Below, one piece after another: positions 9,821 through 32,390 of a DNA stretch of 64,000 nt (positions are counted from its first letter, which is position 1; each line of letters begins with the position of its first letter). The stretch lies in the UHGV virus genome UHGV-0279745. The stretch is one strand, 5' to 3'. The position numbers and the translations under genes are program-made. The DNA is from a virus. The notes under the pieces were generated by a model. The model was given only the letters and a program-made list of their open reading frames with translations, searched no databases and was not told where the DNA came from.

Positions 9821-9858
9821 AGGTACCACCCAACGGTGGTACCTATATTTTATTTTTT
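9821..9858 (+). terminator. rho-independent terminator
   Basis: AGGTACCACC-caac-GGTGGTACCT followed by a T-rich run. Confidence 0.75.
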
Positions 9859-9899
9859 CTCAGATATATTTTACTTAGGTGAGAGTTATGATTAACTCT
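9854..9899 (+). promoter_or_regulatory. conserved promoter-like motif (copy 1) with downstream stem-loop
   Basis: TTTTTTCTCAGATATATTTTACTTAGGTGAGAG; one of four near-identical copies, each after a terminator and before a gene start. Confidence 0.5.
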
Positions 9900-9934
9900 T
9901 TACACCGACTTGTTAACCTAAAGGAGTATTTACA

Positions 9935-10294
9935 ATGGCTTACAATCACAATTCCATCATTCTGGCAAAGCGTAAATTCGGTCTTCACTTGTCTTACGTA
10001 ATTCGTCATTTGACCACAAAAGACATTACTCAGCGTGAACTTGCCCAGCTTGCGAAAGTTTCACAACCTGTTATCTCGTCTATTAAGAACGATCACTCAG
10101 AACGTTTAAGCTTGCCGATTATGATGAAAGTTGCTGATGCGATTCGTCTGAAATACCAGATTAGTTTTAATTCCGTTAAGGGTCGTTGCTCAGTAACCGT
10201 TCACGTAGAGTCCGCGTTGGACTACGTTGCAAACACGTCCATTAAACGCACCACGAAGAATGTGCGTTTTATCACTAACACCGCAACGCACTAA
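9935..10294 (+). CDS. helix-turn-helix (XRE-like) DNA-binding protein
   Basis: ITQRELAQLAKVSQPVISSIKND fits the HTH_XRE pattern; preceded by promoter-like motif and AAGGAG. Confidence 0.6.
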   Translation: MAYNHNSIILAKRKFGLHLSYVIRHLTTKDITQRELAQLAKVSQPVISSIKNDHSERLSLPIMMKVADAIRLKYQISFNSVKGRCSVTVHVESALDYVANTSIKRTTKNVRFITNTATH

Positions 10295-10315
10295 TCAACC
10301 TGAAGGAGTATTATC

Positions 10316-10987
10316 ATGCCACCGAAAATTGGTAAAACTGTAATTGAAGAAACTGTAAAGAACGAGACTAAAGTTAACGAAGCTCAACCGCCTGTGAAAG
10401 TTGAGCTTTTACCCTGCGTTAATGAAATACTCGGGGTGAAATTCTTAACTTTTAGCCCGTATACTGACCTGGTTTTCGAACTTTATCAAGACCAGCCTTT
10501 CAACTTATTCACACTTGTCTGCACTTATAATGGTGATGTTTTGGCGGTTGCACCTGGTCTCAATAGAGACAAATTACTTACAGGCACGGTTATTACTGAA
10601 ATTCTTCTGCGGTTAATGCATAAGTTTGAAGGGCCTGAACTTGACAAAATCGCTGTTAAGTTAGCGGACTTGCTAATCAATGCCGCCACCTGGTTGTGTT
10701 TTAACCCTTCTATCTATTTCCATTTCAGTACAAATATTCTTCACGCCGTAACAGACGACGGTAAAAAGTATCGCATCTTAATTAAGGGTGGGGTGCAACA
10801 ACCTTTGTTCTCTAGACAAAACTGCCATATTAAGTTTTCGCCTGACTTGGTAGAAGTTTACGGCCAGCGAGTAGCGGCTGGCCACTACGATGCCCATCTC
10901 AGATTTTTCAACTACCTGTATGAAAAATTAGGGAAAGCTGGCTTGACACCCAATCTTGCTTTTACAAACTCTGCCCCTTCTGCATGA
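10316..10987 (+). CDS. hypothetical protein
   Basis: 223-aa ORF with GAAGGAG upstream; terminator follows. Confidence 0.55.
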   Translation: MPPKIGKTVIEETVKNETKVNEAQPPVKVELLPCVNEILGVKFLTFSPYTDLVFELYQDQPFNLFTLVCTYNGDVLAVAPGLNRDKLLTGTVITEILLRLMHKFEGPELDKIAVKLADLLINAATWLCFNPSIYFHFSTNILHAVTDDGKKYRILIKGGVQQPLFSRQNCHIKFSPDLVEVYGQRVAAGHYDAHLRFFNYLYEKLGKAGLTPNLAFTNSAPSA

Positions 10988-10999
10988 TGTTTAATAATT

Positions 11000-11035
11000 G
11001 GGGAACTTCGGTTCCCCTTTCTTTTTTGTTTTTAC
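11000..11035 (+). terminator. rho-independent terminator
   Basis: GGGGAAC-ttcg-GTTCCCC followed by a T-run. Confidence 0.75.
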
Positions 11036-11081
11036 AACTTTAGCGTATTGTTTTGAGACGACCTTTTAAGGAGTAATTAAC

Positions 11082-12080
11082 ATGGCTTTTATGAAGATTA
11101 TAAAACATACCGCCACGGATTTAACAGTAGGTCGGTTAGCACGTAGAGATATTCGCAACCCTCAACTTCAGGCATGTTTATCGGGCCCTAACGGTGCTGT
11201 GATTCGTGAGGCGTTGTGCAATAGTGAACTGAATACGTTCTCTTTACAAAAAGGAAAAACAATCCAAGGGTTTATCATCACAAAACACATTTACGGCGAC
11301 CCAACGTTACACTGCTTGTATATGCATGAAATTGTACCGGGTTGTTTGAACAAACTGAACCTGCTACTGGTACTCGACTATACCGGTTTTACGTATCTTA
11401 ATCGAATCGCCAGTGGTGTAGAAGAAATCGCTGAGCTTAACGACTTAGGATTTAGACACACTCACACTACGTATCGCTTAGGTACACGCTCGTTGTTGGA
11501 TATCGCTCTACCAACAAACGTGAAGAACATCTCCGGCGATTTTTATAAAGAGCTAACCGCTGCACAACGTGAACAGCTTATGTTGCTTTTGGGTACGAGT
11601 GTCGTTGAAAACATCAACGCTGACCCTGTGAGTCGCTCACGTCAAATCATGCCACAAGTCGAAACGTTGGTGGAGTTAGTACGTCATGTCAACCACCACA
11701 CCTACGTTTGGATGGATGGCAATGATATTGTGGGCGCGGTGCAAGTTAAATTGCGTAATCTTAACGAGTGTGAATTAAAAGCCATTGCGGTAAGTGAGAC
11801 ACATCGGGGTCGTGGTATCGGACGGACTTTATTGTATCGTGCTCTACAAATTGCATCGACAACAGCGGCACCATTAGAGATAGGGTGTTTCAATAACAAC
11901 CCTGCATTCAGGCACCTGGCCGTCGAATTATTTAAATTTCGCCCCTACGAATACGAACTTGTTTTAGTGCGTGACGAAAACGTCGTCAGTTGGGAGCGTC
12001 AGAAAAATCATGTCAGATTGGTGTTAGTCGACGAAGCGTCATCGTTACAAGGCGGATATAATGCGGAAACCGATAATTAA
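11082..12080 (+). CDS. hypothetical protein with C-terminal GNAT-like domain
   Basis: C-terminal HRGRGIGRTLLYRALQ resembles GNAT motif A; N-terminal 200 aa unknown. Confidence 0.5.
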   Translation: MAFMKIIKHTATDLTVGRLARRDIRNPQLQACLSGPNGAVIREALCNSELNTFSLQKGKTIQGFIITKHIYGDPTLHCLYMHEIVPGCLNKLNLLLVLDYTGFTYLNRIASGVEEIAELNDLGFRHTHTTYRLGTRSLLDIALPTNVKNISGDFYKELTAAQREQLMLLLGTSVVENINADPVSRSRQIMPQVETLVELVRHVNHHTYVWMDGNDIVGAVQVKLRNLNECELKAIAVSETHRGRGIGRTLLYRALQIASTTAAPLEIGCFNNNPAFRHLAVELFKFRPYEYELVLVRDENVVSWERQKNHVRLVLVDEASSLQGGYNAETDN

Positions 12081-13649: not shown

Positions 13650-13658
13650 GGACATTGA

Positions 13659-13886
13659 ATGGAAATCAAACGTATTGTAACCAAAGACAAAAAGATTACT
13701 TACGTCGCAGGTGATAACGAATTCTCGGCGGTTATTAATACTGAGAACGTGCTGATTATCGGTTATCCAGGTAAAGTCATTACTCGTAGCCATCAGCGCG
13801 TGATTGACAAGCTCATCGCCAAAGCAAAAGCGCGTGATGGTGTTGGTTCAGTAGAAACCCATACCGGGTTAACGTTGGCACTCTAA
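13659..13886 (+). CDS. hypothetical small protein
   Basis: 75-aa ORF in co-directional array. Confidence 0.45.
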   Translation: MEIKRIVTKDKKITYVAGDNEFSAVINTENVLIIGYPGKVITRSHQRVIDKLIAKAKARDGVGSVETHTGLTLAL

Positions 13887-14431: not shown

Positions 14432-14435
14432 ACTT

Positions 14436-14474
14436 CCCCTCTCTCCGTTTGGAGGGAGGGAGTATTTATTTTTA
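14436..14474 (+). terminator. rho-independent terminator
   Basis: CCCCTCTCTCC-gttt-GGAGGGAGGG followed by a T-run; near-duplicate of the terminator at 15501. Confidence 0.7.
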
Positions 14475-15150: not shown

Positions 15151-15160
15151 TAATTGTCTA

Positions 15161-15206
15161 AAAAATTTAAGATATATTTCATCTATGTGAGAATTCTCAC
15201 TTAACT
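15161..15206 (+). promoter_or_regulatory. conserved promoter-like motif (copy 2, diverged) with palindromic stem-loop
   Basis: AAGATATATTTCATCTATGTGAGAATTCTCACTTAAC; the GTGAGA...TCTCACTTAAC part matches copy 4. Confidence 0.4.
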
Positions 15207-15223: not shown

Positions 15224-15493
15224 ATGGGTAAGATTTATATTGTTGAAAAACGTGCAGGTAATGTTCTTTCCTATTACGAAGAAGGTAAACCTGAAAAGGT
15301 TAAAACACTCAAACTCGACGGATTTGATGTGAAGAGTTTACGCAAGGGTGTGAAGATTACCTTTAAAGGTCTGACTCGCGTAAATAACTTACACATTGTT
15401 AAGGCCGATGGTACGATGGCTGCGTTAGCGCCTGTCAGTGCTGCGAAAACTACAGCCGGTCGTGGTTGCTACGGTAGCAGTCGTAAGATTTAA
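15224..15493 (+). CDS. hypothetical small protein
   Basis: 89-aa ORF downstream of promoter-like motif copy; terminator follows. Confidence 0.5.
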   Translation: MGKIYIVEKRAGNVLSYYEEGKPEKVKTLKLDGFDVKSLRKGVKITFKGLTRVNNLHIVKADGTMAALAPVSAAKTTAGRGCYGSSRKI

Positions 15494-15500
15494 GCAGTGC

Positions 15501-15540
15501 CCCTCTCTCCGTTAGGAGAGAGGGTACTTTTATTTTTCTT
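15501..15540 (+). terminator. rho-independent terminator
   Basis: CCCTCTCTCC-gtta-GGAGAGAGGG followed by a T-run. Confidence 0.75.
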
Positions 15541-16558: not shown

Positions 16559-16604
16559 TCTTTTTTACAACTGCGGCTATTTTAATGATTAGGAGAATAT
16601 AGAG

Positions 16605-20783: not shown

Positions 20784-23700
20784 ATGGCTAAAGCGGTAAA
20801 GAAAATTCGTTTACACGATTTACGTCCATACACCGGGGATATCGGTGAAGGCGTTTTACTTTTTTCGAAAGACGAAAGGGATTATCAGTTACCTGTCCGC
20901 GAGATTGTTGCGGATATTGACACCGTCAGAAACGCGGTTGCTGACGCACAAACGGCGGCGGCCAAATCGCAACAGTCTGCAACAGAAGCCACACAAGCAA
21001 AAGACTTAGCAGAAACAGCGAAGCAACAAACTGACACGTTAGCTTCCACAGTTAGCGAGCAAGCGGGAACCGTTGCCACTAAAACTGCCGAGGTTAGCAA
21101 AAAACACGCTGAAGTTTTAGCCGCGAAAACTGCCGTAGATACTGTATTACAGTCGGTAAATGAGAAAGCTCAAGCTGTCGCTACAAGCGAACAATCGGTG
21201 ACGGCTGCAGCGGCTGACGTAACTAAGAAAGCAGAAACGGTTACGCAACAGGCCGGACAAGTCCAACAGACGGCTACCGGTGTCGAGAATACTGCGGCTT
21301 CAGTTGAGGCCAGTAAGGGCGCAGTGGAGAAGATTGCTGCACAGGTCGCGAAAGATAAAGAAAGTTCAGAAGGCGCAGCAACACGTTCGGAGTCAGCTGC
21401 CTTACGTGCGGAGAAAATCGCTGCGCAGGGCTTAATCGACGCTAGTACAACCGGTAAAGGTATCGTTAAACTTAACGATACACTGACTAGCGAATCCGTG
21501 ACTGAGGCCGCCACACCGTCCACGGTTAAACAGCTGAATGACGAATTACAGTTAAAAGCCAATAAACATTCGCCGAATTTTACGGGTAAACCGTCATCCC
21601 CAACACCCCCGAAAGATTCAAACGACACGAGTATTTCCACAACGGCCTGGGTGCGTGACGCGATTGCGGAACTGGTTGGTTCTTCACCCGAGACGTTAAA
21701 TACCTTAGCGGAATTAGCTGAGGCGTTAGGTAATGACCCTAACTTCGCAACAACGATTACTGGGGAACTTGCGCAGAAACAACCTCTCAGTCCGTTGCTC
21801 ACCGCCATTGCCGCAGTCACCACAGCGGCAAATAAACTCATGTATTTCACTGGCAGTAATAAAGTCGGATTAACGGATTTTACAGAAACTGCCAGATCCT
21901 TGTTAGCGAAAGGGTCAACTGCGGATATCATCAATTTCTTGGGATTAAAGGCTACTGTAGATAAAGCGAATGGCGCGTTACAGAAAAACTCTAACGGCGC
22001 TGATATCCCAGATAAAGAAACGTTTGCTCGCAATATCGGTCTGTCTCCTGACACCTATCTGCGTTTCCGTGGCGAAATGCCAGTAGATGCTGATATTAAC
22101 ACATTTGCTCCAGATGCCAATTACACAGGAACGTGGGCTAAGTCGACGTCAACCAATGCGTCGATGGCAAAACATTTCCCAGAAGACGGTGCAGTCGGTT
22201 ATCTGGAAGTGTATAAAGCCGGTAATTACAGTGGCGCACAGCGTTTTACCTGCCGTAATGGTAACGTGTACAACCGTATGCTGAGTGGCGCGTGGAATGG
22301 TGCCAATGGACCCTGGTCACCGTGGAGAATGGTAACTACTGGTGTACGTCCATTATCTACCTCTATAGACTTGAACAGTTTGGGTGGCGCTGAGCATATG
22401 GGTAACTGGCGAAACTCAAGCAGTTCGCTGGCTGTTTTTAGCAGACATTACCCTGAAGAAGGTGGCGGTGCGCAAGGCGTACTAGAAGTAATGGAAGGTG
22501 GTCTTTTCGGACGGTTGCAGCGATACACCACACGTCGTGGTACGATGTATGTTCGTGGTTTGACCGCAACGTGGGATTCATCAAACCCGCAATGGGAAGA
22601 TTGGATTCAGGTTGGTTATCAGACTGACGGTGCTTTCTTTAAAGCCAATTTTAACGATCTCGTTAAACCGGGACGTTTCAGTGTCACTGGTGAAGCAACT
22701 AACGGTCCACTTACCGGTTCTTCTGGTGAAACCATATTAGGCGTTTGTGAAGTTACCTTACGCTTAGACGGTACAGGGGTCGAACAGAATTATACTACAT
22801 ACGGTACGGGTACAGAAACTAAAGGTCGTAAATTCCAACGTATCCGTACGGGTAACGCTTGGAGTGACTGGCGTGAGGTTTTCACATCGTATTCGCTTCC
22901 GTTGGTATTAGGTATCGGCGGTGAACGTGCGAATGTTGATCCTTTAGACTGGCAAACCTATGACTTTAAACCAGGTGAGTTAATCTGTACGCCGCTTAAC
23001 ACCATGAAAAATATTCCTACGGGAATGGATTGGGGTGTTATTGACGGTAACTTAGTTAGCATTCTGGTTGGTCCATCAGATGGCGCTACATCAGGCCGGA
23101 GTATGTTGGTTTGGCGTAGTACGGTGTCTACTGCCAACTATCGATTCTTTGCAGTACGTATCGCTGGTGATAAAGGTAGTCGTACGATTACACCACGCCA
23201 GATGCCTGTATTGAATGCAGCACACACCTGGGCAGAAAAACAGACCTTTGCAAAAGGGTTAGCAGGTGAGTTAACAGGCAATGCTTCAACCGCAACGAAA
23301 TTAAAGACCGCACGTAGAATTGGTGGGGTCGCCTTCGACGGTAGTGGTGATATTAACCTCCCAGGTGTTAACCAACAGGGTAATCAAAACACCACGGGTA
23401 ATGCCGGGACAGCCACTAAACTTCAAACTGCCAGAAATATTAACGGTGTGAGATTCGATGGTTCTGCTGACATCAATATCAACACCCTGGTAGGTCGTGG
23501 TCGGGTTACTGCACTAACCGGTTCAAACAAAGGTACGCCTGGTATTCAGATGTACGAAGTTTACAATAACGGTTATCCGACCGCTTATGGTAACTTACTG
23601 CATTTGGGTGGTTCTGCCGCATTAGGTGAAGGTGAACTGTTAATCGGTTGGTCGGGCACGAGTGGTGCGCACGCGCCCGTTTATATTCGTAGTCGACGTG

Positions 23701-25385
23701 ATACAGCGGATGCGCCGTGGTCAGATTGGGCACAAGTTTATACTGCCCGTGATAGTATTCCTGGTGTAAATACCACAGGTAATCAAGATACTACTGGTAA
23801 CGCTGCTACCGCGACGAAACTGAAAACTGCTCGCAGAATCGGGGGCGTTACCTTTGACGGTACTGGGGATATCAATTTACCGGGGGTTAACCAGCAAGGT
23901 AACCAGAATACGACAGGTAATGCAGCAACCGCTACTAAGTTACAAACAGCACGTAAGATCGGCGGTGTTAACTTTGACGGTTCGCAAGACATTAGTCTGC
24001 CCGGTGTGAACCAAACCGGTAACCAATCGACTACGGGGAATGCTGCGACAGCGACTAAGCTCCAGACTGCGCGAAATATAGGTGGCGTAGCTTTTGATGG
24101 TACTAAAGACATCAACTTACCTGGCGTAAACCAAACGGGCAATCAGTCGACCACCGGAAACGCGGCCACTGCAACAAAATTGCAGACAGCGCGTACCATT
24201 AACGGTATCGCATTTGACGGCACCAAAAACATCGAAATAACGGCTGAAAGTTTAAATCTTGGCCAAACTGTAGAATTGGCCGGTGGGTCATTGCAGAAGA
24301 AACAGAATGGTGCCGATATTCCAGATAAGAGAAAATTCTTACGAAATGTTGGTGCCGCGAACACAACAACTGTGTCTTTTAATGGTGGTGCCGGATGGTT
24401 CAAACTGGCAACTGTAACGATGCCGCAAGCCAGTTCCGTGGTTTACATAAGCCTGATTGGTGGTGCAGGGTTTAACGTTGGTTCCCCACATCAAGCAGGT
24501 ATCTCTGAGCTGGTTCTGCGCGCAGGAAATGGGAATCCAAAAGGTATTACTGGTGCGTTATGGCGACTGACCTCAGTCGGCTTCACTAATTTTGCATGGG
24601 TGAATACATCTGGTGACACTTACGATATTTATGTTGAAATAGGTAATTACGCCACCGGTGTTAATATTCAGTGGGATTACACTAGTAATGCCAACGTAAC
24701 GATTCATACATCGCCAAGTTATACGGCTAATAAACCCGCAGGACTAACAGACGGTACCGTCTATCTGATTTACAGCACACACAACAAGCCTAACGCTGGT
24801 GACATCGGTGCGTTACCGTCAGGGGGCGGTACTATAGGTGGCGATTTAACCGTTAACGGTAAATTGGTCACTAAGTACCCTGATTTTCGAATCGCTTACG
24901 GCAACTACGGCTTTATGTTACGTAACGATGGTGCCAATACCTATTTCTTAGTAACCGACGCCGGTCAAGCTGCAACGGGTTCCTGGAACGGTCTACGTCC
25001 GTTGTATTTTAATAATGCTAACGGTCAAGTAACCTTTGGTCATAACGTTACTGGCAGCGGTAACGGTTCGTTTAACGACGTACAGATTCGTTCTGACCGT
25101 CGTAACAAACGTAATCTGGTGAAACTAGATAAAGCTTTGGATCGGTTAGAGTTACTAACCGGTTATTTGTACGAAATTCAGCATCCTGACGACGGCTGGC
25201 AGACCTCTGTAGGTCTAATTGCTCAAGACGCATTAGAAGCGTTACCTGAACTTGTGTCTGAGGATGATGATGTCATTTCAGGCGAAAAACGTTTACGTCT
25301 AAACTACAATGGTGTTATTGCGCTGTTAGTAGAGGGTATGAAAGCGTTGCGTCAAGAGATTAACGAAATCAAAGGGAGATCCTAG
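20784..25385 (+). CDS. long tail fibre protein with C-terminal intramolecular chaperone (S74-like) domain
   Basis: 1533 aa: Ala/Thr/Gln-rich N-terminal region, six 40-aa repeats (GNQxTTGNAATATKLQTAR..GV.FDG..DINLPGVNQ), and C-terminal SDRRNKRN...GLIAQDALEALPELV resembling the autoproteolytic chaperone domain of endosialidase-type fibres. Confidence 0.88.
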   Translation: MAKAVKKIRLHDLRPYTGDIGEGVLLFSKDERDYQLPVREIVADIDTVRNAVADAQTAAAKSQQSATEATQAKDLAETAKQQTDTLASTVSEQAGTVATKTAEVSKKHAEVLAAKTAVDTVLQSVNEKAQAVATSEQSVTAAAADVTKKAETVTQQAGQVQQTATGVENTAASVEASKGAVEKIAAQVAKDKESSEGAATRSESAALRAEKIAAQGLIDASTTGKGIVKLNDTLTSESVTEAATPSTVKQLNDELQLKANKHSPNFTGKPSSPTPPKDSNDTSISTTAWVRDAIAELVGSSPETLNTLAELAEALGNDPNFATTITGELAQKQPLSPLLTAIAAVTTAANKLMYFTGSNKVGLTDFTETARSLLAKGSTADIINFLGLKATVDKANGALQKNSNGADIPDKETFARNIGLSPDTYLRFRGEMPVDADINTFAPDANYTGTWAKSTSTNASMAKHFPEDGAVGYLEVYKAGNYSGAQRFTCRNGNVYNRMLSGAWNGANGPWSPWRMVTTGVRPLSTSIDLNSLGGAEHMGNWRNSSSSLAVFSRHYPEEGGGAQGVLEVMEGGLFGRLQRYTTRRGTMYVRGLTATWDSSNPQWEDWIQVGYQTDGAFFKANFNDLVKPGRFSVTGEATNGPLTGSSGETILGVCEVTLRLDGTGVEQNYTTYGTGTETKGRKFQRIRTGNAWSDWREVFTSYSLPLVLGIGGERANVDPLDWQTYDFKPGELICTPLNTMKNIPTGMDWGVIDGNLVSILVGPSDGATSGRSMLVWRSTVSTANYRFFAVRIAGDKGSRTITPRQMPVLNAAHTWAEKQTFAKGLAGELTGNASTATKLKTARRIGGVAFDGSGDINLPGVNQQGNQNTTGNAGTATKLQTARNINGVRFDGSADININTLVGRGRVTALTGSNKGTPGIQMYEVYNNGYPTAYGNLLHLGGSAALGEGELLIGWSGTSGAHAPVYIRSRRDTADAPWSDWAQVYTARDSIPGVNTTGNQDTTGNAATATKLKTARRIGGVTFDGTGDINLPGVNQQGNQNTTGNAATATKLQTARKIGGVNFDGSQDISLPGVNQTGNQSTTGNAATATKLQTARNIGGVAFDGTKDINLPGVNQTGNQSTTGNAATATKLQTARTINGIAFDGTKNIEITAESLNLGQTVELAGGSLQKKQNGADIPDKRKFLRNVGAANTTTVSFNGGAGWFKLATVTMPQASSVVYISLIGGAGFNVGSPHQAGISELVLRAGNGNPKGITGALWRLTSVGFTNFAWVNTSGDTYDIYVEIGNYATGVNIQWDYTSNANVTIHTSPSYTANKPAGLTDGTVYLIYSTHNKPNAGDIGALPSGGGTIGGDLTVNGKLVTKYPDFRIAYGNYGFMLRNDGANTYFLVTDAGQAATGSWNGLRPLYFNNANGQVTFGHNVTGSGNGSFNDVQIRSDRRNKRNLVKLDKALDRLELLTGYLYEIQHPDDGWQTSVGLIAQDALEALPELVSEDDDVISGEKRLRLNYNGVIALLVEGMKALRQEINEIKGRS
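23265..23483 (+). repeat. tandem 120-bp (40-aa) repeat block 1 within the tail fibre gene
   Basis: Two units encoding G(E/N).(T/N)TGNA.TATKL.TAR.I.GV.FDGS.DIN.... Confidence 0.8.
23778..24240 (+). repeat. tandem 120-bp (40-aa) repeat block 2 within the tail fibre gene
   Basis: About four consecutive units GNQ(D/N/S)TTGNAATATKLQTAR.IGGV.FDG..DI.LPGVNQ. with high DNA-level identity. Confidence 0.85.
25091..25382 (+). other. C-terminal intramolecular chaperone / autoproteolysis domain of the tail fibre
   Basis: SDRRNKRN...LTGYLYEI...GLIAQDALEALPELV matches the conserved pattern of endosialidase-type C-terminal chaperone domains as recalled. Confidence 0.7.
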
Positions 25386-26167
25386 TGGCAGTTGTCGGCG
25401 TAGGTGGTTGGATTGGTTCTTCAGCAAAAGCTGAAACTGGTAACGATTGGATGTCTGGCGCGATGCGCACACTTGGTGTGCCGGTTCCAGGCTGGATGTC
25501 GCAATTGGCGGGAAAATCAAAAGAGGTCCATTATTCTATTGGTGCTAACCATAGCTATAATAAGGATACTCTTATTAACTATTTACGTTCTTTAGGCTCT
25601 ACTGCTGTCGTTGTGACTATTACGGGGGATTTAGTGTCTTATAGTAGCGGAGTTCCTTGTTTAGAGTTCCCTGGCGACCTACCGAACTCCTCCATTACAC
25701 TCGTTATCAATCCTGGGGTTACAGTATACGGCAGAGGAGGCAACGGTGGTTCTAACTCGCCAGGCGGTGCAGGTGGAACCGCAGTACAGAACGGAATAGG
25801 AAACAGGTTACGTATAACTAACCGTGGCGCTATTGCCGGAGGCGGTGGCGGCGGTGGCGGCGGTAACAGGGGTAGACTAATATTTGGTGGTGGCGGTGGT
25901 CGCCCATTCGGTGCTGGTGGGTCTTCCTCTCATATGAGTTCCGGTGCAACTGCTGGTACTATTTCCGCTCCTGGTAAAGGATCTGTTGGTGAGGGGTCTC
26001 TTAGTGCATATACAGGCGGTTCGGGTGGTAATGTCGGTGCTGCTGGAGGAAGATGTAATACTCAAGGTAACGGTACAGAATATAACGGCGGAGCAGCTGG
26101 TAAAGCTGTTACTGGTAATGCGCCAAGATGGGACGCAGTAGGTGCAATATACGGTTCACGTGTTTAA
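25385..26167 (+). CDS. glycine-rich protein (poly-Gly tract), fibre-associated
   Basis: GTG start overlaps the fibre stop by 1 nt (TAGTG); contains GGGGGGGGGN and many GG/GGS tracts. Confidence 0.6.
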   Translation: MAVVGVGGWIGSSAKAETGNDWMSGAMRTLGVPVPGWMSQLAGKSKEVHYSIGANHSYNKDTLINYLRSLGSTAVVVTITGDLVSYSSGVPCLEFPGDLPNSSITLVINPGVTVYGRGGNGGSNSPGGAGGTAVQNGIGNRLRITNRGAIAGGGGGGGGGNRGRLIFGGGGGRPFGAGGSSSHMSSGATAGTISAPGKGSVGEGSLSAYTGGSGGNVGAAGGRCNTQGNGTEYNGGAAGKAVTGNAPRWDAVGAIYGSRV

Positions 26168-26242
26168 TTAAAAAGGAGGGTAGATGGGGTAGCGTCAGGA
26201 TGGGTCGGATCTTCAGCTAGGAATGAAACGGGCGAACAATGG

Positions 26243-26686
26243 ATGAGCGCTGCTGGTAGTAAATTAGGATTGGGTAGACCTTTTATGATGAGTCAAATGG
26301 TGGGAAGATCTATGGGCTGTAAAATTGCAACTGCTGCATATAGCGATTCTTTAGGTAAGAAATGGGGCGCGGTAGGGCCAAGCTGGCCGTTAAACCAGAA
26401 AAATCAGGGAACCATTCAAAACGCGGGTAACTGCGGGGTGGGAACTTTAGTAGGTATCGAGTTACAGTTAACGACGATAGTTGCTAACGCAAAACCCACT
26501 TTAGCGGTTTACTTACAAGGTGGGAGAGCCTCTAACATTACCGTAAATTTAGGTGGCAACACTTGTACGCTGACCTATCAGCAGGTTATTAACGGACAGC
26601 ATTATTACTGGACTAATAACATCAGCGCTGCGTTCCAAAACGTAATGAAATCAACAGGCGCGCTACGTGATTTGCGAATTAGTTAA
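26243..26686 (+). CDS. paralog of the glycine-rich protein N-terminus (5' end uncertain)
   Basis: Homology to the N-terminus of the 25385 ORF (GW[IV]GSSA+xETGxxWMS[AG]A) begins in frame upstream of ATG 26243, directly after the TAA of the preceding gene. Confidence 0.5.
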   Translation: MSAAGSKLGLGRPFMMSQMVGRSMGCKIATAAYSDSLGKKWGAVGPSWPLNQKNQGTIQNAGNCGVGTLVGIELQLTTIVANAKPTLAVYLQGGRASNITVNLGGNTCTLTYQQVINGQHYYWTNNISAAFQNVMKSTGALRDLRIS

Positions 26687-26773
26687 TTATTTTCAACTGA
26701 AATCGTAATTGAGGGGAGGGGGGTGAAATGATTCTAGTAACATTTTATCCCCCTACTGTAGGGGGTAAACTTT

Positions 26774-27289
26774 ATGGGACAATTCGTGCCGGATTTGTCA
26801 CTGACCTCACCTAACATGGTTATTTCGTTGATCAATCACGACCTTCAGCTTGATCTGCAAGAAACCGATGTTGAGTTTAGCGAACTAAAATCTAGCGACG
26901 CGATGGATCGTGATACCACTGCTGTTGTAAAGATCAAACGTCCGGGCAGCAGAACGTTACAGATCTATTACAATCGTTTAACCGCAGAGCGGTGGTTAAA
27001 CCAGCAACCTATTCTGGTAAAGGTCACCGGTAATGGCTTTACTACGCACGATCTGATCGACGGAATTAATGCGGTCTGTGGTAGTAATTTACAAGCCGAC
27101 GATCTTACCGACGAATCATTTACCGTAGGGAGGGACGCTGTAACATTACAAGTTTCACCCAACTCGCTAGGTTATAAAGGCCAATTCTCCGTTCTGGTTT
27201 TCGGTAACGATGAAGAAGCCGCAGTAACAAAAGACAACGATTTGATCGTTACTGCAGATAATCGTGTCTTAACATTCGGAGGTCACTAA
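26774..27289 (+). CDS. family-X paralog (fibre-associated hypothetical protein)
   Basis: MGQFVPDLSLTSPNMVISLINHD and ...LQIYYNRL are paralogous to 20021-20581; precedes the second fibre-like gene. Confidence 0.55.
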   Translation: MGQFVPDLSLTSPNMVISLINHDLQLDLQETDVEFSELKSSDAMDRDTTAVVKIKRPGSRTLQIYYNRLTAERWLNQQPILVKVTGNGFTTHDLIDGINAVCGSNLQADDLTDESFTVGRDAVTLQVSPNSLGYKGQFSVLVFGNDEEAAVTKDNDLIVTADNRVLTFGGH

Positions 27290-27909
27290 TGGCTGAACTG
27301 GTAGGAAAGGTACGCGTTCACGAACTACCGACACTTTCAGAAGACGTCACAGGTGTAGTCGTCTTAGCGTCTAAAGAACAAACTGAATACCAACTCCCGA
27401 TTGAAAAATTAGGGGGTGGTGAGGTTACAGTGAGTCCGTCGGCGAATAACATCCTTAAGTCTAACAGTGATGGGTTGTTTGTTAATGGTGCGCATCCGAT
27501 TGTACCAAAAATAGATGCAAAAACCGTATCGGGAAATATGGTAGTAGAAAAAACGTTGACGGGTGGTGCGGTAATCTGCAAAACAACGGTTGACGTTAAT
27601 AACAGGCTGGGTGTTACGCAATTATCAGGGGTATCAATTTATAGCCAGTGTCTGTTGGAAAATAAACTGGTTTACCTGGCAGCAGATGGTGGTATTATTG
27701 ATGCGTACTTCTACGTTAGTGGTACAAAAACCACAGCGAGTACAATAACCCACACCATTCGGGTTGTCTTAGCGAAAGTACCTTCTAAAGTTGTCGATAT
27801 CACCGATTTGTCTGAAACCGAAGTACAATACGAGAATAGTAATTTACCTGTTAAGATCGTTATTAAACATCTTGCAGGGACAACACTTTCTCAGAACGGA
27901 ATGAAATAA
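27289..27909 (+). CDS. short tail-fibre-like protein (fibre N-terminal domain paralog)
   Basis: N-terminus MAELVGKVRVHELPTLSEDVTGVVVLASKEQTEYQLPIEKL is paralogous to the N-terminus of the 1533-aa fibre; ATGA coupling with upstream gene. Confidence 0.6.
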   Translation: MAELVGKVRVHELPTLSEDVTGVVVLASKEQTEYQLPIEKLGGGEVTVSPSANNILKSNSDGLFVNGAHPIVPKIDAKTVSGNMVVEKTLTGGAVICKTTVDVNNRLGVTQLSGVSIYSQCLLENKLVYLAADGGIIDAYFYVSGTKTTASTITHTIRVVLAKVPSKVVDITDLSETEVQYENSNLPVKIVIKHLAGTTLSQNGMK

Positions 27910-27916
27910 TTTTTAG

Positions 27917-27956
27917 GTAGTAGGGGCTTAGCCCCTACTACCTTTTTTATTTTTTC
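27917..27956 (+). terminator. rho-independent terminator
   Basis: GGTAGTAGGGGC-tta-GCCCCTACTACC followed by a T-run. Confidence 0.8.
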
Positions 27957-28002
27957 TCAGATATATATTACCTAGAGGAGAGTGAAATTTACGTTCACTC
28001 CA
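27951..28002 (+). promoter_or_regulatory. conserved promoter-like motif (copy 3) with downstream stem-loop
   Basis: TTTTTTCTCAGATATATATTACCTAGAGGAGAG, then stem-loop GGAGAGTGAA...TTCACTCC. Confidence 0.5.
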
Positions 28003-28029
28003 TTAGTTATAGCCGAAAAGGAGGATTAG

Positions 28030-28881
28030 ATGCATCACCCGTATTATCTCCCGCACATTCTAGCAAATAGGGACCCCGCTTATTATTACGGACAAACAGA
28101 AGGATCTTTTAATCGACTATACATTCGTGAATTTGATACCGATGAAATGACGGATGACCAGTACCTAGAGTATCTAAAAGACCTTTACAGTTTTTCAAAA
28201 TCGAATAAAGATGGCTTTGGACGCCTCTCAGTCATTAGCGATGGTGAATATCGTCATTTAGCTAAGCCTGTTACGTACCCTATTATTACGCGAGCTTATA
28301 CATCGGATAGGCAATATCTTGCTGAACTAAAAATTCCTCTACGGATAGACGGGCCCCAAATTAGCTGTATGGAAGTAGAAATTCAACCAATTGCTGAAGA
28401 CTATATTGAGGACTACTTCAAGAAAGCTAAAGACGTACTCGACGAGGGTTTAAGTTTCTCTGAAGAAGGCACGATTTGTCTTCTCTCGCTACTCTCGAAG
28501 ACTTATGTCACAGCAAATTTCCGTGTCTCTGATTCCAGTAACTACAATACACTTACTCCCTCTAAGACAAAACCGGTTTATTGGGACGATCGGTTAGTCG
28601 ACAGACACCGTTGGCTTACTATCTTAGATAAAGTAAAATTCGAACCCCCTAAACACACCGAAGACAATTTTACTTTATTACACAACTTCGAACCGATCTA
28701 TATCCCGACGCATTTTGAACAAGCCTTACGTCATCGGTTGAAATATGTGTTGGAATTACGGTACGGAAAGATAAATGGGCTAACCTGTTCTGGTGAATTG
28801 AATGAAGATGAACGCGAGAAAATAAAAATCGTGTTTGATAAGTTGGTTGAAGATTACATTAAGAAGGAAGGGCAATTATGA
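28030..28881 (+). CDS. hypothetical protein
   Basis: 283-aa ORF; AAGGAGG upstream; first gene after promoter-like motif copy at 27957. Confidence 0.55.
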   Translation: MHHPYYLPHILANRDPAYYYGQTEGSFNRLYIREFDTDEMTDDQYLEYLKDLYSFSKSNKDGFGRLSVISDGEYRHLAKPVTYPIITRAYTSDRQYLAELKIPLRIDGPQISCMEVEIQPIAEDYIEDYFKKAKDVLDEGLSFSEEGTICLLSLLSKTYVTANFRVSDSSNYNTLTPSKTKPVYWDDRLVDRHRWLTILDKVKFEPPKHTEDNFTLLHNFEPIYIPTHFEQALRHRLKYVLELRYGKINGLTCSGELNEDEREKIKIVFDKLVEDYIKKEGQL

Positions 28882-29321
28882 AACCAAATACTACTAACGG
28901 CATTATGTTACTTTGTGATTCTGAAACGTTAGCAAACCGTATTCGTGGTTTGATGCAAGTACGTTGGCAGCAAAAAGTTCTCGTCGACTATGCTGCCCCA
29001 TTTGTTCACATTACCTGGTTGCCAGAAGCCAGCGATTTCAAAGAACGTATAACCACAAGAAGAATTAAAGAATGGTTATCAGCAATCATTAATAAGCAGA
29101 TTACCGTTATCAATTTCCAACTTTTCGGTACCGCTGAAGAACATGAAATCTTGAAACAGTGTTTAAGAGCGTTGGCTGTTTCCTTTTCTGTTCGTGGTAG
29201 CTGCTACACGGCTTATTTTATCGGTTCGCTTGAACTGTTTAAGAATACGCTAATGCTTCAGCTAAAAGATGACTACAAACTTTTAGATAAAATCGATTTC
29301 GAATTCCCAGGCATGATTTAA
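28878..29321 (+). CDS. hypothetical protein
   Basis: 147-aa ORF; ATGA overlap. Confidence 0.5.
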   Translation: MKPNTTNGIMLLCDSETLANRIRGLMQVRWQQKVLVDYAAPFVHITWLPEASDFKERITTRRIKEWLSAIINKQITVINFQLFGTAEEHEILKQCLRALAVSFSVRGSCYTAYFIGSLELFKNTLMLQLKDDYKLLDKIDFEFPGMI

Positions 29322-29332
29322 GGAACTATAAC

Positions 29333-30178: not shown

Positions 30179-30220
30179 CGAAGGCTTAAACACCACACTA
30201 TCTACCTAAAGGAGCATTAA

Positions 30221-30736: not shown

Positions 30737-30738
30737 AA

Positions 30739-31020
30739 ATGTTAGATTGGTTGTTGGGATTAATTAACTCACGTCAACAGGAGCTTTATAAAGAAAACGC
30801 ACGGTTACGGCAGGAACTTAGTAACAATCGTCAAACCAAACGACAATTAATTCGGATGGTAAAACAACAGGCGCGTTGTATACGGGATATCGATTATCAG
30901 TATCACCGTCTGAATACCTTAGACCCAACAACAAAAGCTTTAGGCAGTACGATTGGACATGCACGTAAAGTCAGTCACGATGCGTTAGTTCGATTAGATA
31001 CAATAGAAGAGAAACTGTGA
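30739..31020 (+). CDS. hypothetical small protein
   Basis: 93-aa ORF; basic/coiled-coil character. Confidence 0.45.
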   Translation: MLDWLLGLINSRQQELYKENARLRQELSNNRQTKRQLIRMVKQQARCIRDIDYQYHRLNTLDPTTKALGSTIGHARKVSHDALVRLDTIEEKL

Positions 31021-31054
31021 TTAGCTCTCCCTCGGGAACGCCGAGGGAGATAAG

Positions 31055-31453
31055 GTGATTTACATGATGCGTTTAGTTTACTTAAAAAGGCGTTTGTTAT
31101 TAAAAGCCCAACTGTTTGTTAACGGGAAAGTTAAAAACTGGCTGTGTGGTAAAAGAGTACAATATGTCGTTAAAGAAGGCGACTGGTATACGGAGGTTGT
31201 GACTTCCCCTAACGGTGAACTTATAAACGTTACTATTCGTGACGTTATGGTTAAGGTTGGCAGGGGAGGCGGTCGGTTGTTTGAATCGGAAACTATAAGA
31301 GTCGCTGCTAAACAATTGAAAGAAGGTCGAGTTATATTCAACTCTACTGCCCAGAAATACTACGACAATTTATTCGAGTGTCAACGAGCAATGGAGAGAA
31401 TGACCCGTGAGATGCGAAAAATGCACATCACGGAGATCACTATAGGAGTTTAA
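31055..31453 (+). CDS. hypothetical protein
   Basis: 132-aa ORF; start ambiguous between GTG 31055 and ATG 31064. Confidence 0.45.
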   Translation: MIYMMRLVYLKRRLLLKAQLFVNGKVKNWLCGKRVQYVVKEGDWYTEVVTSPNGELINVTIRDVMVKVGRGGGRLFESETIRVAAKQLKEGRVIFNSTAQKYYDNLFECQRAMERMTREMRKMHITEITIGV

Positions 31454-31455
31454 CG

Positions 31456-31764
31456 ATGGAAAGTAAAATCACAAACACATCGGTACCTGAGAACATTGTC
31501 AACTATATTCTCCGCGGTGGGTTGTTAGAAGACAATAAAGAAACGTGCGATAAACTCGTTTCTCAACTACTGCCTATTCGTTCAGAATACTGCGAAATCG
31601 TTATCTTAGGTTCCGAGTATTGCGTACGCTCTTACTGCCGTCGTTTCGAAGCCTTACGCGTTCCACGTACGTTAGGTGGCGTGATCTTACTGATTTCGTC
31701 TTTTCAAGACGCTCATGTGCGTGTGGCGACCTGGATTGCCAAAGGAGGCGATAGTGGTTTTTAA
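31456..31764 (+). CDS. hypothetical protein
   Basis: 102-aa ORF. Confidence 0.45.
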   Translation: MESKITNTSVPENIVNYILRGGLLEDNKETCDKLVSQLLPIRSEYCEIVILGSEYCVRSYCRRFEALRVPRTLGGVILLISSFQDAHVRVATWIAKGGDSGF

Positions 31765-32062
31765 ATTGCTAGGTTTCGGAAAATGCAAAGCGTGCGCAGA
31801 GCACGAAGAATTTATCAAGCTATTAGAAGAAACAGTTGAAACACAACAAGAACTTATCTCTGAATACCGTGCGAAAACAGGTTCAGTAGAATATTTGACT
31901 GTTCTCGTTTGTGCTATTGCTGAATTGGGTTGTGAGGGTAAATTGCCTAAAGAGGAGATATTAAAACTATTAAAAGAAAAAACGTCGTTTTACCGTAAAG
32001 ATATTGAAGACTGTAAACGTGAGATTATAAGAGCGAATTGGGAGATTATCAATGAAGCGTGA
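31754..32062 (+). CDS. hypothetical protein
   Basis: ORF 31715-32062; start placed at GTG 31754 after AAAGGAGG (31741-31748). Confidence 0.45.
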   Translation: MVFKLLGFGKCKACAEHEEFIKLLEETVETQQELISEYRAKTGSVEYLTVLVCAIAELGCEGKLPKEEILKLLKEKTSFYRKDIEDCKREIIRANWEIINEA

Positions 32063-32333
32063 AACAATTGTATTTTGTCAAAACGGTGATGTAAAACAGT
32101 ACCGGGGTAAGAAGTTAATTCGTACGTTAGATTATCGCGAAGCAAAACGTTTCGTTGAAGAGTGTGCGTGGTTAATGCATTACGAAGGGAACTATCGTGC
32201 CATCTTAGAAGCGCCGCGTTTAGAACGTGCAGTTGCGCAGATGGCAATAGGTAATCCTAAGAACTGTTACCTAGCACGCAAACCAAAATACCTACAGCGT
32301 GTCTCGCTAGGCAGTTTTATTGCGGGATTTTAA
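32052..32333 (+). CDS. hypothetical protein
   Basis: 93-aa ORF. Confidence 0.45.
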   Translation: MKRETIVFCQNGDVKQYRGKKLIRTLDYREAKRFVEECAWLMHYEGNYRAILEAPRLERAVAQMAIGNPKNCYLARKPKYLQRVSLGSFIAGF

Positions 32334-32337
32334 TAAA

Positions 32338-32390
32338 AATAATTTCAGATATATATTACTTAGGTGAGAGTACAAAAGCTCTCACTTAAC
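32338..32390 (+). promoter_or_regulatory. conserved promoter-like motif (copy 4) with downstream stem-loop
   Basis: ATTTCAGATATATATTACTTAGGTGAGAG, then stem-loop GTGAGAG-tacaaaag-CTCTCAC. Confidence 0.5.

What the first reader, a model, noticed from the sequence alone, without database searches (positions are those of the whole stretch)
9854..32390. Four-copy conserved intergenic motif with a transcript-proximal stem-loop (putative phage-specific promoter class)
CTCAGATATAT(A)TTAC.TAG(G/A)(T/G)GAGAG recurs at 9859, 27957 and 32344, with a diverged copy at 15168. Each copy lies just after a terminator and 50-70 nt before a gene start, and each is followed by a stem-loop built from the conserved GTGAGAG half (for example GTGAGAG-tacaaaag-CTCTCAC and GTGAGAATTCTCAC). 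This looks like a dedicated promoter with a 5' UTR hairpin; I do not recognise it as a canonical sigma70 or T4-type late promoter.
Basis: seen in the sequence. Interest (0 to 1): 0.65.

Follow-up and report, generated by a model that had tools for sequence, protein, structure and literature searches.

The report
Jumbo-phage early promoters with 5' hairpin
The repeated intergenic motif is the known early promoter used by the virion-carried RNA polymerase of phiKZ-like giant phages; the less expected part is that in this phage group its best-matching copies start transcripts with a conserved hairpin.

Summary
Three near-identical copies (9861, 27958, 32346) and one diverged copy (15169) exist, and I found a fifth weak copy at 8445. 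All five are intergenic, on the + strand, and 35-54 nt upstream of a start codon.

The window comes from an uncultured giant phage of the SPN3US/phiEaH2 group (phiKZ-like). It is syntenic with SPN3US 84-161 kb.

The motif matches the published early-promoter consensus of the virion-packaged multisubunit RNA polymerase (vRNAP): phiKZ TATATTAC, and AR9 AAATATATATTAT-(6N)-G+1. The same 25-nt motif turns up in IMG/VR almost only on SPN3US-type giant-phage contigs. A 225-kb contig 94-95% identical to the window encodes the vRNAP betaN subunit.

The hairpin is also real. It starts at or within 2 nt of the predicted +1 and keeps pairing through compensatory changes: 32 non-redundant leaders have a 5.1-bp anchored stem versus 3.1 bp in shuffles.

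The hairpin is tied to the high-consensus subclass. In SPN3US it occurs at 7 of 7 "class A" sites but only 2 of 14 "class B" sites. It is absent from 66 promoters of the 201phi2-1 type. I found no paper describing it.

The most likely role is a 5'-terminal stem-loop that protects early mRNA. This is inferred, not shown.

The parts
8394..8413 (+). Intrinsic terminator ending the upstream unit. Its T-run runs into the A/T-rich upstream part of the next promoter.
   Evidence: 8-bp stem, 5 GC pairs, T-run; sequence.
8433..8469 (+). Weak, class-B-like early promoter copy (CAGATTGATATTAT-CAATGT-G). Predicted +1 at 8465. Drives ORFs 8515-9129 and 9143-9814 (thymidylate kinase homologue).
   Evidence: PWM 19.6 bits; CM E = 3e-5. 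Positional orthologue of the SPN3US site with predicted +1 at 92559.
8475..8491 (+). Stem-loop GTGAGT-cggta-ACTCAC at +11 to +27 of the predicted transcript. It is displaced from the 5' end, unlike the strong copies.
   Evidence: MFE -6.5 kcal/mol, z -1.3.
9820..9845 (+). Intrinsic terminator of the 8465 unit.
   Evidence: 11-bp stem, T-run.
9849..9885 (+). Class A early promoter. Predicted +1 at 9881 (the G of GAGAG). Drives the HTH protein gene 9935-10294 and ORF 10316-10987. The unit ends at terminator 11000-11017.
   Evidence: Orthologous to the SPN3US promoter upstream of the HTH gene (predicted +1 at 94258).
9881..9900 (+). 5'-terminal stem-loop GAGAGTTA-tgat-TAACTCTT, starting at the predicted +1.
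   Evidence: leader MFE -10.4, z -2.0.
11000..11017 (+). Terminator closing the 9881 unit.
15157..15193 (+). Diverged early promoter copy (AAGATATATTTCAT-CTATGT-G). Predicted +1 at 15189. Drives the single gene 15224-15493, which ends at terminator 15501-15524.
   Evidence: 39.5 bits; E = 2e-7. Positional orthologue of the SPN3US site whose element starts at 100814.
15187..15200 (+). Short palindromic stem-loop GTGAG-aatt-CTCAC. Only 3 bp remain if the transcript starts at 15189.
   Evidence: weak, z -0.5.
15501..15524 (+). Terminator closing the 15189 unit.
27915..27943 (+). Strong terminator after the tail-fibre module. Its T-run abuts the promoter.
   Evidence: 13-bp stem, 8 GC pairs.
27946..27982 (+). 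Class A early promoter. Predicted +1 at 27978. Drives 28030-28881 and following genes, which have no family match.
27978..28001 (+). 5' stem-loop; core GAGTGAA-atttacg-TTCACTC at 27980-28000.
   Evidence: leader MFE -10.3, z -2.2. A compensated variant, GAGCGAA/TTCGCTC, occurs in relative L020.
32334..32370 (+). Class A early promoter; best match to the clade consensus. Predicted +1 at 32366. Drives 32416-34931 (four ORFs). The unit ends at terminator 34956-34975.
   Evidence: 65 bits; 61 bits.
32364..32385 (+). 5' stem-loop GTGAGAGT-acaaaa-GCTCTCAC. From the predicted +1 it reads GAGAGT/GCTCTC, 32366-32383.
   Evidence: leader MFE -8.8, z -3.1; 0 of 200 shuffles fold as well.
34956..34975 (+). 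Terminator closing the 32366 unit.

Best explanation
These are early promoters of a phiKZ-like (SPN3US-group) giant phage. They are read by the multisubunit RNA polymerase that is packaged in the virion and injected with the DNA.

The promoter spans about -32 to +5. It has an A/T-rich stretch (TAAAAATAATTT, or the T-run of the preceding terminator), then the nearly invariant CAGATATATATTAC at -20 to -7, then YTAGGT, then the start G of GAGAG. The start is placed by analogy with AR9, phiKZ and phiR1-37, where the TSS follows the element by 6 nt.

The window holds three high-consensus ("class A") copies, one intermediate copy and one weak "class B" copy. Each heads a short early operon, and three of the five are visibly closed by a GC-rich terminator.

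In class A copies the first 20-25 transcribed nucleotides fold into a stem-loop with 0-2 unpaired 5' nucleotides. About 15-25 unpaired nucleotides follow, then an AAGGAG ribosome site.

The hairpin most likely protects these first transcripts from 5'-end-dependent decay (RppH and RNase E need a single-stranded 5' end).

Shown here: the motif, its placement, its conservation, the polymerase gene in the lineage, and hairpin covariation. Inferred: the exact TSS, early timing, and the hairpin's function.
For: Identity of the phage:
- The large virion-protein paralogues match PHROG families of phiKZ-like phages and are 41-50% identical to proteins of SPN3US, phiEaH2 and Asesino.
- 55 window ORFs are collinear with SPN3US 83.8-161 kb.

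Match to the known promoter class:
- Published consensus sequences are phiKZ TATATTAC, 201phi2-1 TTTRARR_BTATATTACDWHDGTG, and OBP/N1M2 TTTCARRYAKATATTATYWAAGTG (PMC7058600).
- AR9 early promoters read AAATATATATTAT-(6N)-G+1, and the TSS lies 6 nt downstream of the element in phiKZ and phiR1-37 (PMC5312081).
- The review PMC7598289 places the AT-rich element at about -10 and assigns it to vRNAP.

Specificity:
- The 25-nt pattern gives 29 IMG/VR loci. All but two short fragments (5.9 and 7.4 kb) lie on 107-246 kb contigs, including SPN3US, phiEaH2 and Caitlin.
- The motif stays identical while proteins are only about 40-50% identical.

Placement:
- 5 of 5 window copies are intergenic and co-oriented with the downstream gene.
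- In SPN3US, 9 of 9 strong hits and 21 of 22 relaxed hits are intergenic, all on one strand. One sits directly upstream of a gene annotated as an RNA polymerase beta subunit, at 29014.
- All five window copies have positional orthologues in SPN3US.

Polymerase:
- A 225-kb contig 94-95% identical to the window encodes a 76%-identical homologue of SPN3US gp241.
- gp241 is the experimentally virion-associated vRNAP betaN subunit (PMC5105663).

Hairpin:
- 51 clade instances: mean MFE -7.7, z -1.9. 13 chance matches elsewhere: -3.5, z -0.2.
- 32 non-redundant leaders: Watson-Crick stem anchored at +1 to +3 averages 5.06 bp versus 3.06 in shuffles, z 11.7.
- At least 10 different stem sequences keep pairing.
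- SPN3US class A 7 of 7 versus class B 2 of 14.
- 5' secondary structure blocks RppH and RNase E (PMC3997798).
Against: - No transcript 5'-end or timing data exist for any SPN3US-group phage that I could find. The TSS is transferred from AR9, phiKZ and phiR1-37.
- The window itself holds no polymerase gene.
- In many copies the stem can be extended to include the GT at -2/-1. The start could therefore be 2 nt upstream of my prediction.
- Counts of G-U versus A-C pairs did not discriminate RNA-level from DNA-level pairing.
- The two diverged window copies have weak or displaced hairpins.
- Pseudomonas relatives manage without a hairpin, so it is not required by the polymerase as such.
- A stabilising role is only one of several things a 5' hairpin can do.
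Confidence: 0.78

Rival explanations
1. The promoter assignment is right, but the inverted repeat at +1 to +25 does something other than stabilise mRNA. Options: (a) a DNA-level element that helps the sigma-less vRNAP melt or leave the promoter; (b) an early pause or attenuation signal, since the stem is followed by TTT(T)A; (c) a tag bound by a phage or host protein, for example for export from the early infection vesicle or for translation.
For: - The hairpin is tied to the highest-consensus promoter subclass and begins exactly at the initially transcribed GAGAG. This fits a link with initiation.
- Many 3' arms end in CTCTTTTA.
- Early transcription of these phages happens inside a vesicle (PMC13282480).
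- The G-U versus A-C test was inconclusive.
Against: - 66 promoters of the 201phi2-1 type share the TATATTAC-6N-G core but have no hairpin (mean z +0.07). SPN3US class B sites also largely lack one. The polymerase therefore does not need it.
- The stems are AU-rich and weak (-4 to -12 kcal/mol) with at most about 4 T. The phage's real terminators have 8-13-bp GC-rich stems and long T-runs.
- Stem sequences vary freely while pairing is kept, which argues against a sequence-specific protein site.
Confidence: 0.25
2. The motif is a promoter for a different polymerase: the phage's non-virion RNA polymerase (middle or late genes), or host sigma70 RNA polymerase using TATATT as a -10 box.
For: - TATATT resembles TATAAT.
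- One copy gives a 9/12 sigma70-like match (32330-32357).
- Promoters lie among structural genes on the same strand.
Against: - Sigma70-like matches in the window are no more frequent than in shuffles (24 versus 34.9 and 32 versus 33.7). Only one of the five copies gets one.
- Published middle and late promoters of phiKZ and AR9 look different: a weak AT-rich motif at -24, TATG+1, and AACA-6N-TA/G.
- 25 nt of identity across phages with about 40% protein identity is typical of a phage-polymerase promoter.
- phiKZ-type infection does not depend on host RNA polymerase.
- A related site precedes a polymerase beta-subunit gene that is not one of the listed virion subunits, and non-virion polymerase genes must be expressed early.
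Confidence: 0.07
3. The repeats are chiefly mobile or recombinogenic terminator-promoter cassettes that shuffle gene modules between related phages, like T4 PeSLs. Their conservation would then reflect that role rather than, or in addition to, transcription.
For: - Three of the five copies directly follow a terminator.
- Genes behind the 27978 and 32366 copies have no SPN3US homologue or family match.
- In relative L025 the first gene of the 27978 unit is missing, with the junction 38 nt after +1.
- The region 28-32 kb shows several gene-sized indels among close relatives.
- PeSL precedent: PMC4122927.
Against: - Only one junction was examined.
- The cassette idea does not explain the invariant core, the fixed G 6 nt downstream, or strict co-orientation with genes.
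- It is compatible with the promoter function rather than a replacement for it.
Confidence: 0.1

Closest known systems
vRNAP early promoters of phiKZ-related giant phages (phiKZ, AR9, phiR1-37, 201phi2-1, OBP, N1M2)
   Same: Extended AT-rich, highly conserved element containing TATATTA(C/T). G start 6 nt downstream. T-rich stretch further upstream. Intergenic, at the head of early operons. The lineage encodes a virion multisubunit RNA polymerase.
   Different: The clade-specific flanks CAGA...YTAGGTGAGAG are conserved over about 25 nt. The high-consensus copies carry a stem-loop anchored at +1 that 66 promoters of the 201phi2-1 type lack. None of the papers I could read mention it. No 5'-end mapping exists for this clade.
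5'-terminal stabiliser stem-loops of E. coli and phage mRNAs (ompA 5' UTR hairpin; the T7 gene 10 leader is cited from memory)
   Same: A hairpin with essentially no single-stranded 5' overhang, followed by an unpaired spacer and a ribosome site. RppH and RNase E need an unpaired 5' end (PMC3997798).
   Different: Here the 5' arm is the conserved initially transcribed sequence of a phage-polymerase promoter. No half-life data exist. The stems are short (5-9 bp) and AU-rich.
T4-type PeSL cassettes (promoter-early stem-loop)
   Same: A composite terminator stem-loop plus early promoter repeated between early genes in variable regions. One gene-sized indel has its junction in the cassette.
   Different: PeSL promoters are host sigma70 early promoters, and the stem-loop is the upstream terminator. 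Here the polymerase is phage-encoded, and a second stem-loop lies downstream of the start.
N4 virion RNA polymerase hairpin promoters
   Same: A virion-injected polymerase, early genes, and a promoter-associated inverted repeat.
   Different: From my own knowledge, the N4 hairpin lies upstream of +1, forms in DNA with a 3-nt loop, and is read by a single-subunit polymerase. Here the repeat is downstream of +1, loops are 3-13 nt, and the polymerase is multisubunit.
SP6/T7-type single-subunit polymerase promoters
   Same: About 23 bp of conserved sequence running into the start site, and a G start. From memory, the SP6 promoter ATTTAGGTGACACTATAGAAGAG shares TTAGGTGA.
   Different: No single-subunit polymerase is annotated in SPN3US. 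The shared octamer sits at a different distance from the start. The AT-rich core has no counterpart.

Membership tests
phiKZ-like vRNAP early promoter | Extended, highly conserved AT-rich element containing TATATTA(C/T) | tested here: met
   TATATATTAC at 27962-27971 and 32350-32359, TATATTTTAC at 9865-9874, GATATTAT at 8451-8458. Published consensus sequences.
phiKZ-like vRNAP early promoter | Conserved start purine (G) separated from the element by 6 nt | tested here: met
   G at the 7th position after TTAC/TTAT/TCAT in all 5 window copies. G in 46 of 48 clade instances and in 21 of 22 SPN3US sites. This is sequence only.
phiKZ-like vRNAP early promoter | A/T-rich or T-rich stretch upstream of about -19 | tested here: met
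   Count matrix (TAAAAATAATTT). Window copies use this stretch or the terminator T-run. phiKZ description.
phiKZ-like vRNAP early promoter | Intergenic, co-oriented with and at the head of operons | tested here: met
   5 of 5 in the window. 21 of 22 in SPN3US, all on one strand.
phiKZ-like vRNAP early promoter | The phage encodes a virion-packaged multisubunit RNA polymerase | tested here: met
   Not in the window. It is present in the 94-95% identical 225-kb contig (76% identity to SPN3US gp241, the vRNAP betaN subunit).
phiKZ-like vRNAP early promoter | Primary 5' ends at the predicted site, appearing early and without new protein synthesis or host RNA polymerase | not testable with these tools
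   No transcript data are available for this clade in the held literature.
sigma70 promoter | TTGACA and TATAAT hexamers 16-18 bp apart at the motif | tested here: not met
   Only the 32346 copy gives a 9/12 match. Counts in the window are at or below shuffle expectation.
N4-type hairpin promoter | DNA hairpin upstream of the start site | tested here: not met
   The inverted repeat lies at about +1 to +25, downstream of the predicted start. N4 properties are from my own knowledge.
5'-terminal stabiliser stem-loop | Stem begins within about 0-2 nt of the transcript 5' end | tested here: inconclusive
   Met for the three strong copies if the TSS is as predicted; the TSS is not measured. Not met for 8465, where the hairpin starts at +11.
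5'-terminal stabiliser stem-loop | Pairing maintained by selection (compensatory changes) | tested here: met
   Anchored Watson-Crick stem 5.06 versus 3.06 bp, z 11.7, over 32 non-redundant leaders. Varied stems listed.
5'-terminal stabiliser stem-loop | Lengthens mRNA half-life | not testable with these tools
   Needs decay measurements.
T4-type PeSL cassette | Composite terminator plus early promoter | tested here: inconclusive
   3 of the 5 copies have a clear upstream terminator. The promoter type differs from PeSLs.
T4-type PeSL cassette | Indel or replacement breakpoints at the cassette | tested here: inconclusive
   One junction 38 nt after +1, in L025 versus the window. No systematic survey was made.

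The most novel reading that the evidence does not exclude
Giant phages of the SPN3US/Erwinia clade have two subclasses of vRNAP promoter. The high-consensus subclass (CAGATATATATTACYTAGGTGAG) is hard-wired to a stem-loop that starts at +1. It would mark a distinct set of immediate-early transcripts whose 5' hairpin is needed during the vesicle stage of infection, for survival against host 5'-end-dependent decay or for handling or export of the RNA. Pseudomonas relatives of the 201phi2-1 type lack this solution.
Probability: 0.35. Interest if true: 0.55.

Novelty: new member of a known kind. Interest (0 to 1): 0.36.

Why it matters
- **Annotation.** It assigns five transcription units in an uncultured E. 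coli-type giant phage to the earliest, host-independent stage of infection. This flags their mostly unknown small proteins as candidates for host takeover.
- **Search tool.** It gives a sharp motif (about 25 nt, essentially absent outside the clade) for finding early genes in SPN3US-type phages, for which no transcript maps exist.
- **Testable lead.** The hairpin-bearing subclass shows how a sigma-less virion polymerase's first transcripts may be built to survive. The same polymerase family works without the hairpin in Pseudomonas phages, so comparing the two could reveal a host-specific RNA-decay pressure.
- **Practical use.** The promoter-hairpin-ribosome-site cassette is a compact, orthogonal expression module.

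Tried and rejected
- **Covariance model.** Model R1, built with an 8-bp/4-nt-loop structure, aligned every copy without gaps. It was useful as a window-wide scan but useless for counting covariation. I replaced it with an anchored-stem test against shuffles.
- **Forced +1-register pseudo-alignment for the count of structure pairs.** It mis-registered hairpins that begin at +3, so I abandoned it.
- **G-U versus A-C pair counts, to tell RNA-level from DNA-level or antisense pairing.** Inconclusive.
- **TSS spacing from phiKZ supplementary tables.** No supplements are held, and Ceyssens 2014 is not held. I took the spacing from the AR9 paper instead.
- **N4-like phage.** This was my first guess from the strand switch and AT-rich repeats. 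I rejected it once the proteins matched phiKZ-like virion families.
- **SP6-like promoter (shared TTAGGTGA).** Rejected; no single-subunit polymerase is annotated in SPN3US.
- **TATATTAC on the minus strand at 45438.** It lies in a small ORF without the flanking motif, so it is not a copy.
- **A [CT]GAC[CT]AT box between hairpin and ribosome site.** Enriched in SPN3US and Erwinia-phage leaders (16 of 53) but absent from the window copies. Its window occurrences are ordinary coding sequence.
- **Rfam.** No family matches in the window.
- **OBP/N1M2-type promoters.** Only 11 heterogeneous instances. Hairpins there are not anchored at +1, and the sample is too small to conclude anything.
- **Conservation of the two weak copies in the one close relative that covers them.** At 97-98% identity this is uninformative.

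Full report

The pattern CAGATATATNTTACNTAGRKGAGAG matches exactly at 9861-9885, 27958-27982 and 32346-32370, all on the + strand. None is expected in 100 shuffles. The diverged copy at 15169 shares AGATATAT and GTGAGA.

A weight matrix built from the four copies finds a fifth copy at 8445, CAGATTGATATTATCAATGTGAC. It scores 19.6 bits against a background maximum of about 7 and follows a terminator at 8394-8413.

A covariance-model scan of both strands with filters off returns exactly these five sites (E from 1e-13 to 3e-5). The next best hit has E = 1.6.

All five sites lie in the 5.9% of the window that is intergenic, with a chance probability of about 7e-7. All point toward the next gene.

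**2. What is the window?**

Genes run on the + strand to about 38.9 kb and mostly on the - strand after that.

Three giant paralogous ORFs at 47601-61417 match PHROG "virion structural protein" families. They are 41-50% identical to proteins of Salmonella phage SPN3US and of Erwinia phages phiEaH2, Asesino and pEa_SNUABM_29.

Fifty-five ORFs are collinear with SPN3US 83.8-161 kb.

The window is 94-95% identical in DNA to a 225-kb IMG/VR contig, IMGVR_UViG_3300029126_000001.

It is therefore part of an uncultured phiKZ-like giant phage. Its 1533-aa tail fibre is a mosaic of coliphage fibre segments, which suggests an E. coli-type host.

**3. What is the motif?**

phiKZ-like phages transcribe early genes with a multisubunit RNA polymerase carried in the virion (vRNAP). 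They transcribe later genes with a second, non-virion enzyme, independently of the host polymerase (PMC7598289; PMC13282480).

Published early-promoter consensus sequences are:
- phiKZ: TATATTAC
- 201phi2-1: TTTRARR_BTATATTACDWHDGTG
- OBP/N1M2: TTTCARRYAKATATTATYWAAGTG (PMC7058600)
- AR9: AAATATATATTAT-(6N)-G+1, with the TSS 6 nt downstream of the element in phiKZ and phiR1-37 as well (PMC5312081)

The window motif, TTTCAGATATATATTAC-TTAGGT-GAGAG, fits these position for position. By that spacing the predicted starts are 9881, 27978, 32366, 15189 and 8465. The leaders are then 35-54 nt long.

The 25-nt pattern gives 29 loci in IMG/VR. All but two short fragments (5.9 and 7.4 kb) lie on 107-246 kb contigs, including SPN3US, phiEaH2 and Caitlin. 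The motif is identical among phages whose proteins are only about 40-50% identical.

The lineage encodes the enzyme. The near-identical 225-kb contig carries a 76%-identical homologue of SPN3US gp241. In SPN3US, gp241 is the virion-associated vRNAP betaN subunit (PMC5105663).

**4. Genome-wide test in a complete relative**

In SPN3US the strict matrix gives 9 hits, all on one strand and all intergenic. A relaxed pattern gives 22 sites, all on one strand, 21 of them intergenic, and 21 with G at the seventh position after the element.

The sites fall into two subclasses.
- Class A (TATATATTAC...GGTGAG): 7 sites.
- Class B (AGATAGATATTATCT): 14 sites. This matches the OBP/N1M2 form.

One class B site sits directly upstream of the gene at 29014, annotated as an RNA polymerase beta subunit. 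That gene is not among the virion subunits listed for SPN3US, so I take it to be a non-virion subunit, and those must be expressed early.

All five window copies have positional orthologues in SPN3US. They sit upstream of the homologues of window ORFs 8515, 9935 and 15224, after the tail-fibre module, and before the gp131 region.

The window holds three class A copies, one intermediate copy (15169) and one class-B-like copy (8445).

**5. The hairpin**

I defined promoters only by their upstream half. That gave 51 unique clade instances and 13 chance matches on unrelated contigs.

| Set | n | Mean MFE of first 40 nt (kcal/mol) | Mean z |
|---|---|---|---|
| SPN3US-type clade | 51 | -7.7 | -1.9 |
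| Chance matches elsewhere | 13 | -3.5 | -0.2 |
| 201phi2-1-type promoters | 66 | -3.4 | +0.07 |
| SPN3US class A | 7 | -8.5 | -2.7 |
| SPN3US class B | 14 | -4.8 | -0.5 |

In the clade set the stem starts 1-5 nt after TAG and ends about 20-29 nt downstream.

After collapsing to 32 non-redundant leaders, the longest uninterrupted Watson-Crick stem anchored at +1 to +3 averages 5.06 bp. Shuffles give 3.06 ± 0.17 bp (z 11.7).

Stem sequences differ but stay complementary. Examples are GAGAGTTA/TAACTCTT, GAGATTAC/GTAATCTC, GAGCATTGA/TCAATGCTT, GATAGA/TCTATC, GAGTGAA/TTCACTC and AGAGCGAA/TTCGCTCT.

In the window the three strong leaders fold from +1 with z of -2.0, -2.2 and -3.1. The two diverged leaders have a 3-bp stem or a displaced stem.

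In SPN3US the hairpin goes with class A: 7 of 7 sites have a stem of at least 6 bp anchored at +1 to +3, against 2 of 14 class B sites. A Machinavirus Erwinia phage has the hairpin at the orthologous promoter. Klebsiella phage Miami has a variant core and no obvious hairpin. OBP/N1M2-type instances are few and mixed.

None of the papers I could read on phiKZ, 201phi2-1 or AR9 transcription mentions a hairpin at the 5' end of early transcripts. Ceyssens 2014 and Lavysh 2016 were not available to read.

**6. How it most likely works**

1. Injected vRNAP binds the promoter, about -32 to +5, and starts at the G of GAGAG. This step is inferred by homology.
2. In class A units the first 20-25 nt fold into a stem-loop with essentially no free 5' end. 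This step is computed and supported by covariation.
3. RppH and the 5' sensor of RNase E both need an unpaired 5' end, and 5' structures are long known to stabilise E. coli mRNAs (PMC3997798). The simplest role is therefore protection of the first phage transcripts. This step is inferred.
4. A single-stranded spacer and an AAGGAG site follow, so translation should not be blocked.
5. Three of the five units are closed by GC-rich terminators found in the scan (9820-9845, 11000-11017, 15501-15524, 34956-34975). A terminator often lies directly before the next promoter, so its T-run doubles as the upstream T-rich element.

**7. Rivals**

- *Host sigma70 or non-virion polymerase promoter.* Unlikely. 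Sigma70-like matches are no more frequent than in shuffles, and only one copy has a 9/12 match. Published middle and late motifs differ.
- *Hairpin with another role (promoter escape, attenuation, protein tag).* Cannot be excluded. However, the same polymerase family works without it, the stems are weak and AU-rich compared with the phage's real terminators, and the stem sequence is free to vary.
- *T4 PeSL-like recombination cassettes* (PMC4122927). This is compatible with promoter function rather than an alternative to it. One relative lacks the first gene of the 27978 unit, with the junction 38 nt after +1. That is a single case.

**8. Verdict**

The added value is twofold. There is a sharp clade-specific consensus. 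There is also a stem-loop anchored at +1 that is coupled to the high-consensus subclass, which I could not find described. Its function remains an inference.

Noticed in passing
window 41992-45516 (- strand): A small ORF at 45280-45516 probably starts at the GTG near 45485, after a GGGAGG ribosome site. It ends in a Cys-rich tail (...HYNCNGGCSWSCSGSCSKGAGGR). It lies upstream of a hypothetical gene (44243-45142) and two radical SAM genes (43298-44221, 41992-43314). This looks like a peptide-modification (RiPP-like) cassette. The radical SAM genes are conserved in SPN3US at 140-142 kb.
   Followed up: partly
L138-L142 (SPN3US), e.g. sites starting at 23809, 28968, 72683, 92541, 109892, 184043: A second promoter variant, AGATAGATATTATCT-(N5)-G, occurs at 14 sites. 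All are on one strand and 13 of 14 are intergenic. It matches the OBP/N1M2 consensus, mostly lacks the +1 hairpin, and has shorter leaders. One site sits just before the RNA polymerase beta-subunit gene at 29014.
   Followed up: partly
window 1838-1848, 11029-11039, 16562-16572 (+): TTTTTACAAYT recurs three times. Each is intergenic, just after a terminator and 20-50 nt before a gene that has no early-promoter motif. It may be another promoter class (middle?). The count alone is not above chance.
   Followed up: partly
window 28017-28845 versus L025: A close relative (IMGVR_UViG_3300045988_078609) lacks the gene at 28030-28881. The deletion junction is in the early leader, 38 nt after the predicted start. 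Region 28-32 kb shows several other gene-sized indels among relatives.
   Followed up: partly
L001, L016, L017, L032, L049, L056 and other loci, +20 to +45 of the early leaders: A box (C/T)GAC(C/T)AT, often as AATCGACTATTAATCTAAAGGAG or GACTATCAAGGA, lies between the hairpin and the ribosome site in 16 of 53 early leaders of SPN3US and Erwinia phages. About 0.6 are expected by chance. It is absent from the window's leaders.
   Followed up: partly
window 20784-27909 (+): The 1533-aa tail-fibre ORF is a mosaic of segments 47-66% identical to P1 S, P2 H-type and T-even long-tail-fibre proteins. It is followed by fibre-related ORFs. This suggests an E. coli or Shigella-type host and module exchange with unrelated coliphages.
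   Followed up: no
window 14437-14460 and 15501-15524 (+): Two nearly identical terminators (CCCTCTCTCCGTTTGGAGGGAGGG and CCCTCTCTCCGTTAGGAGAGAGGG) lie about 1 kb apart and bracket the region holding the diverged 15169 promoter and its single small gene.
   Followed up: no
L155 (Klebsiella phage Miami) 320-345: At the position orthologous to the 9861 promoter, upstream of the HTH gene, Miami has a different core: TTTTTTAAATCGATATTACCACTGTG. It has no obvious +1 hairpin. This shows how the element drifts between genera.
   Followed up: no
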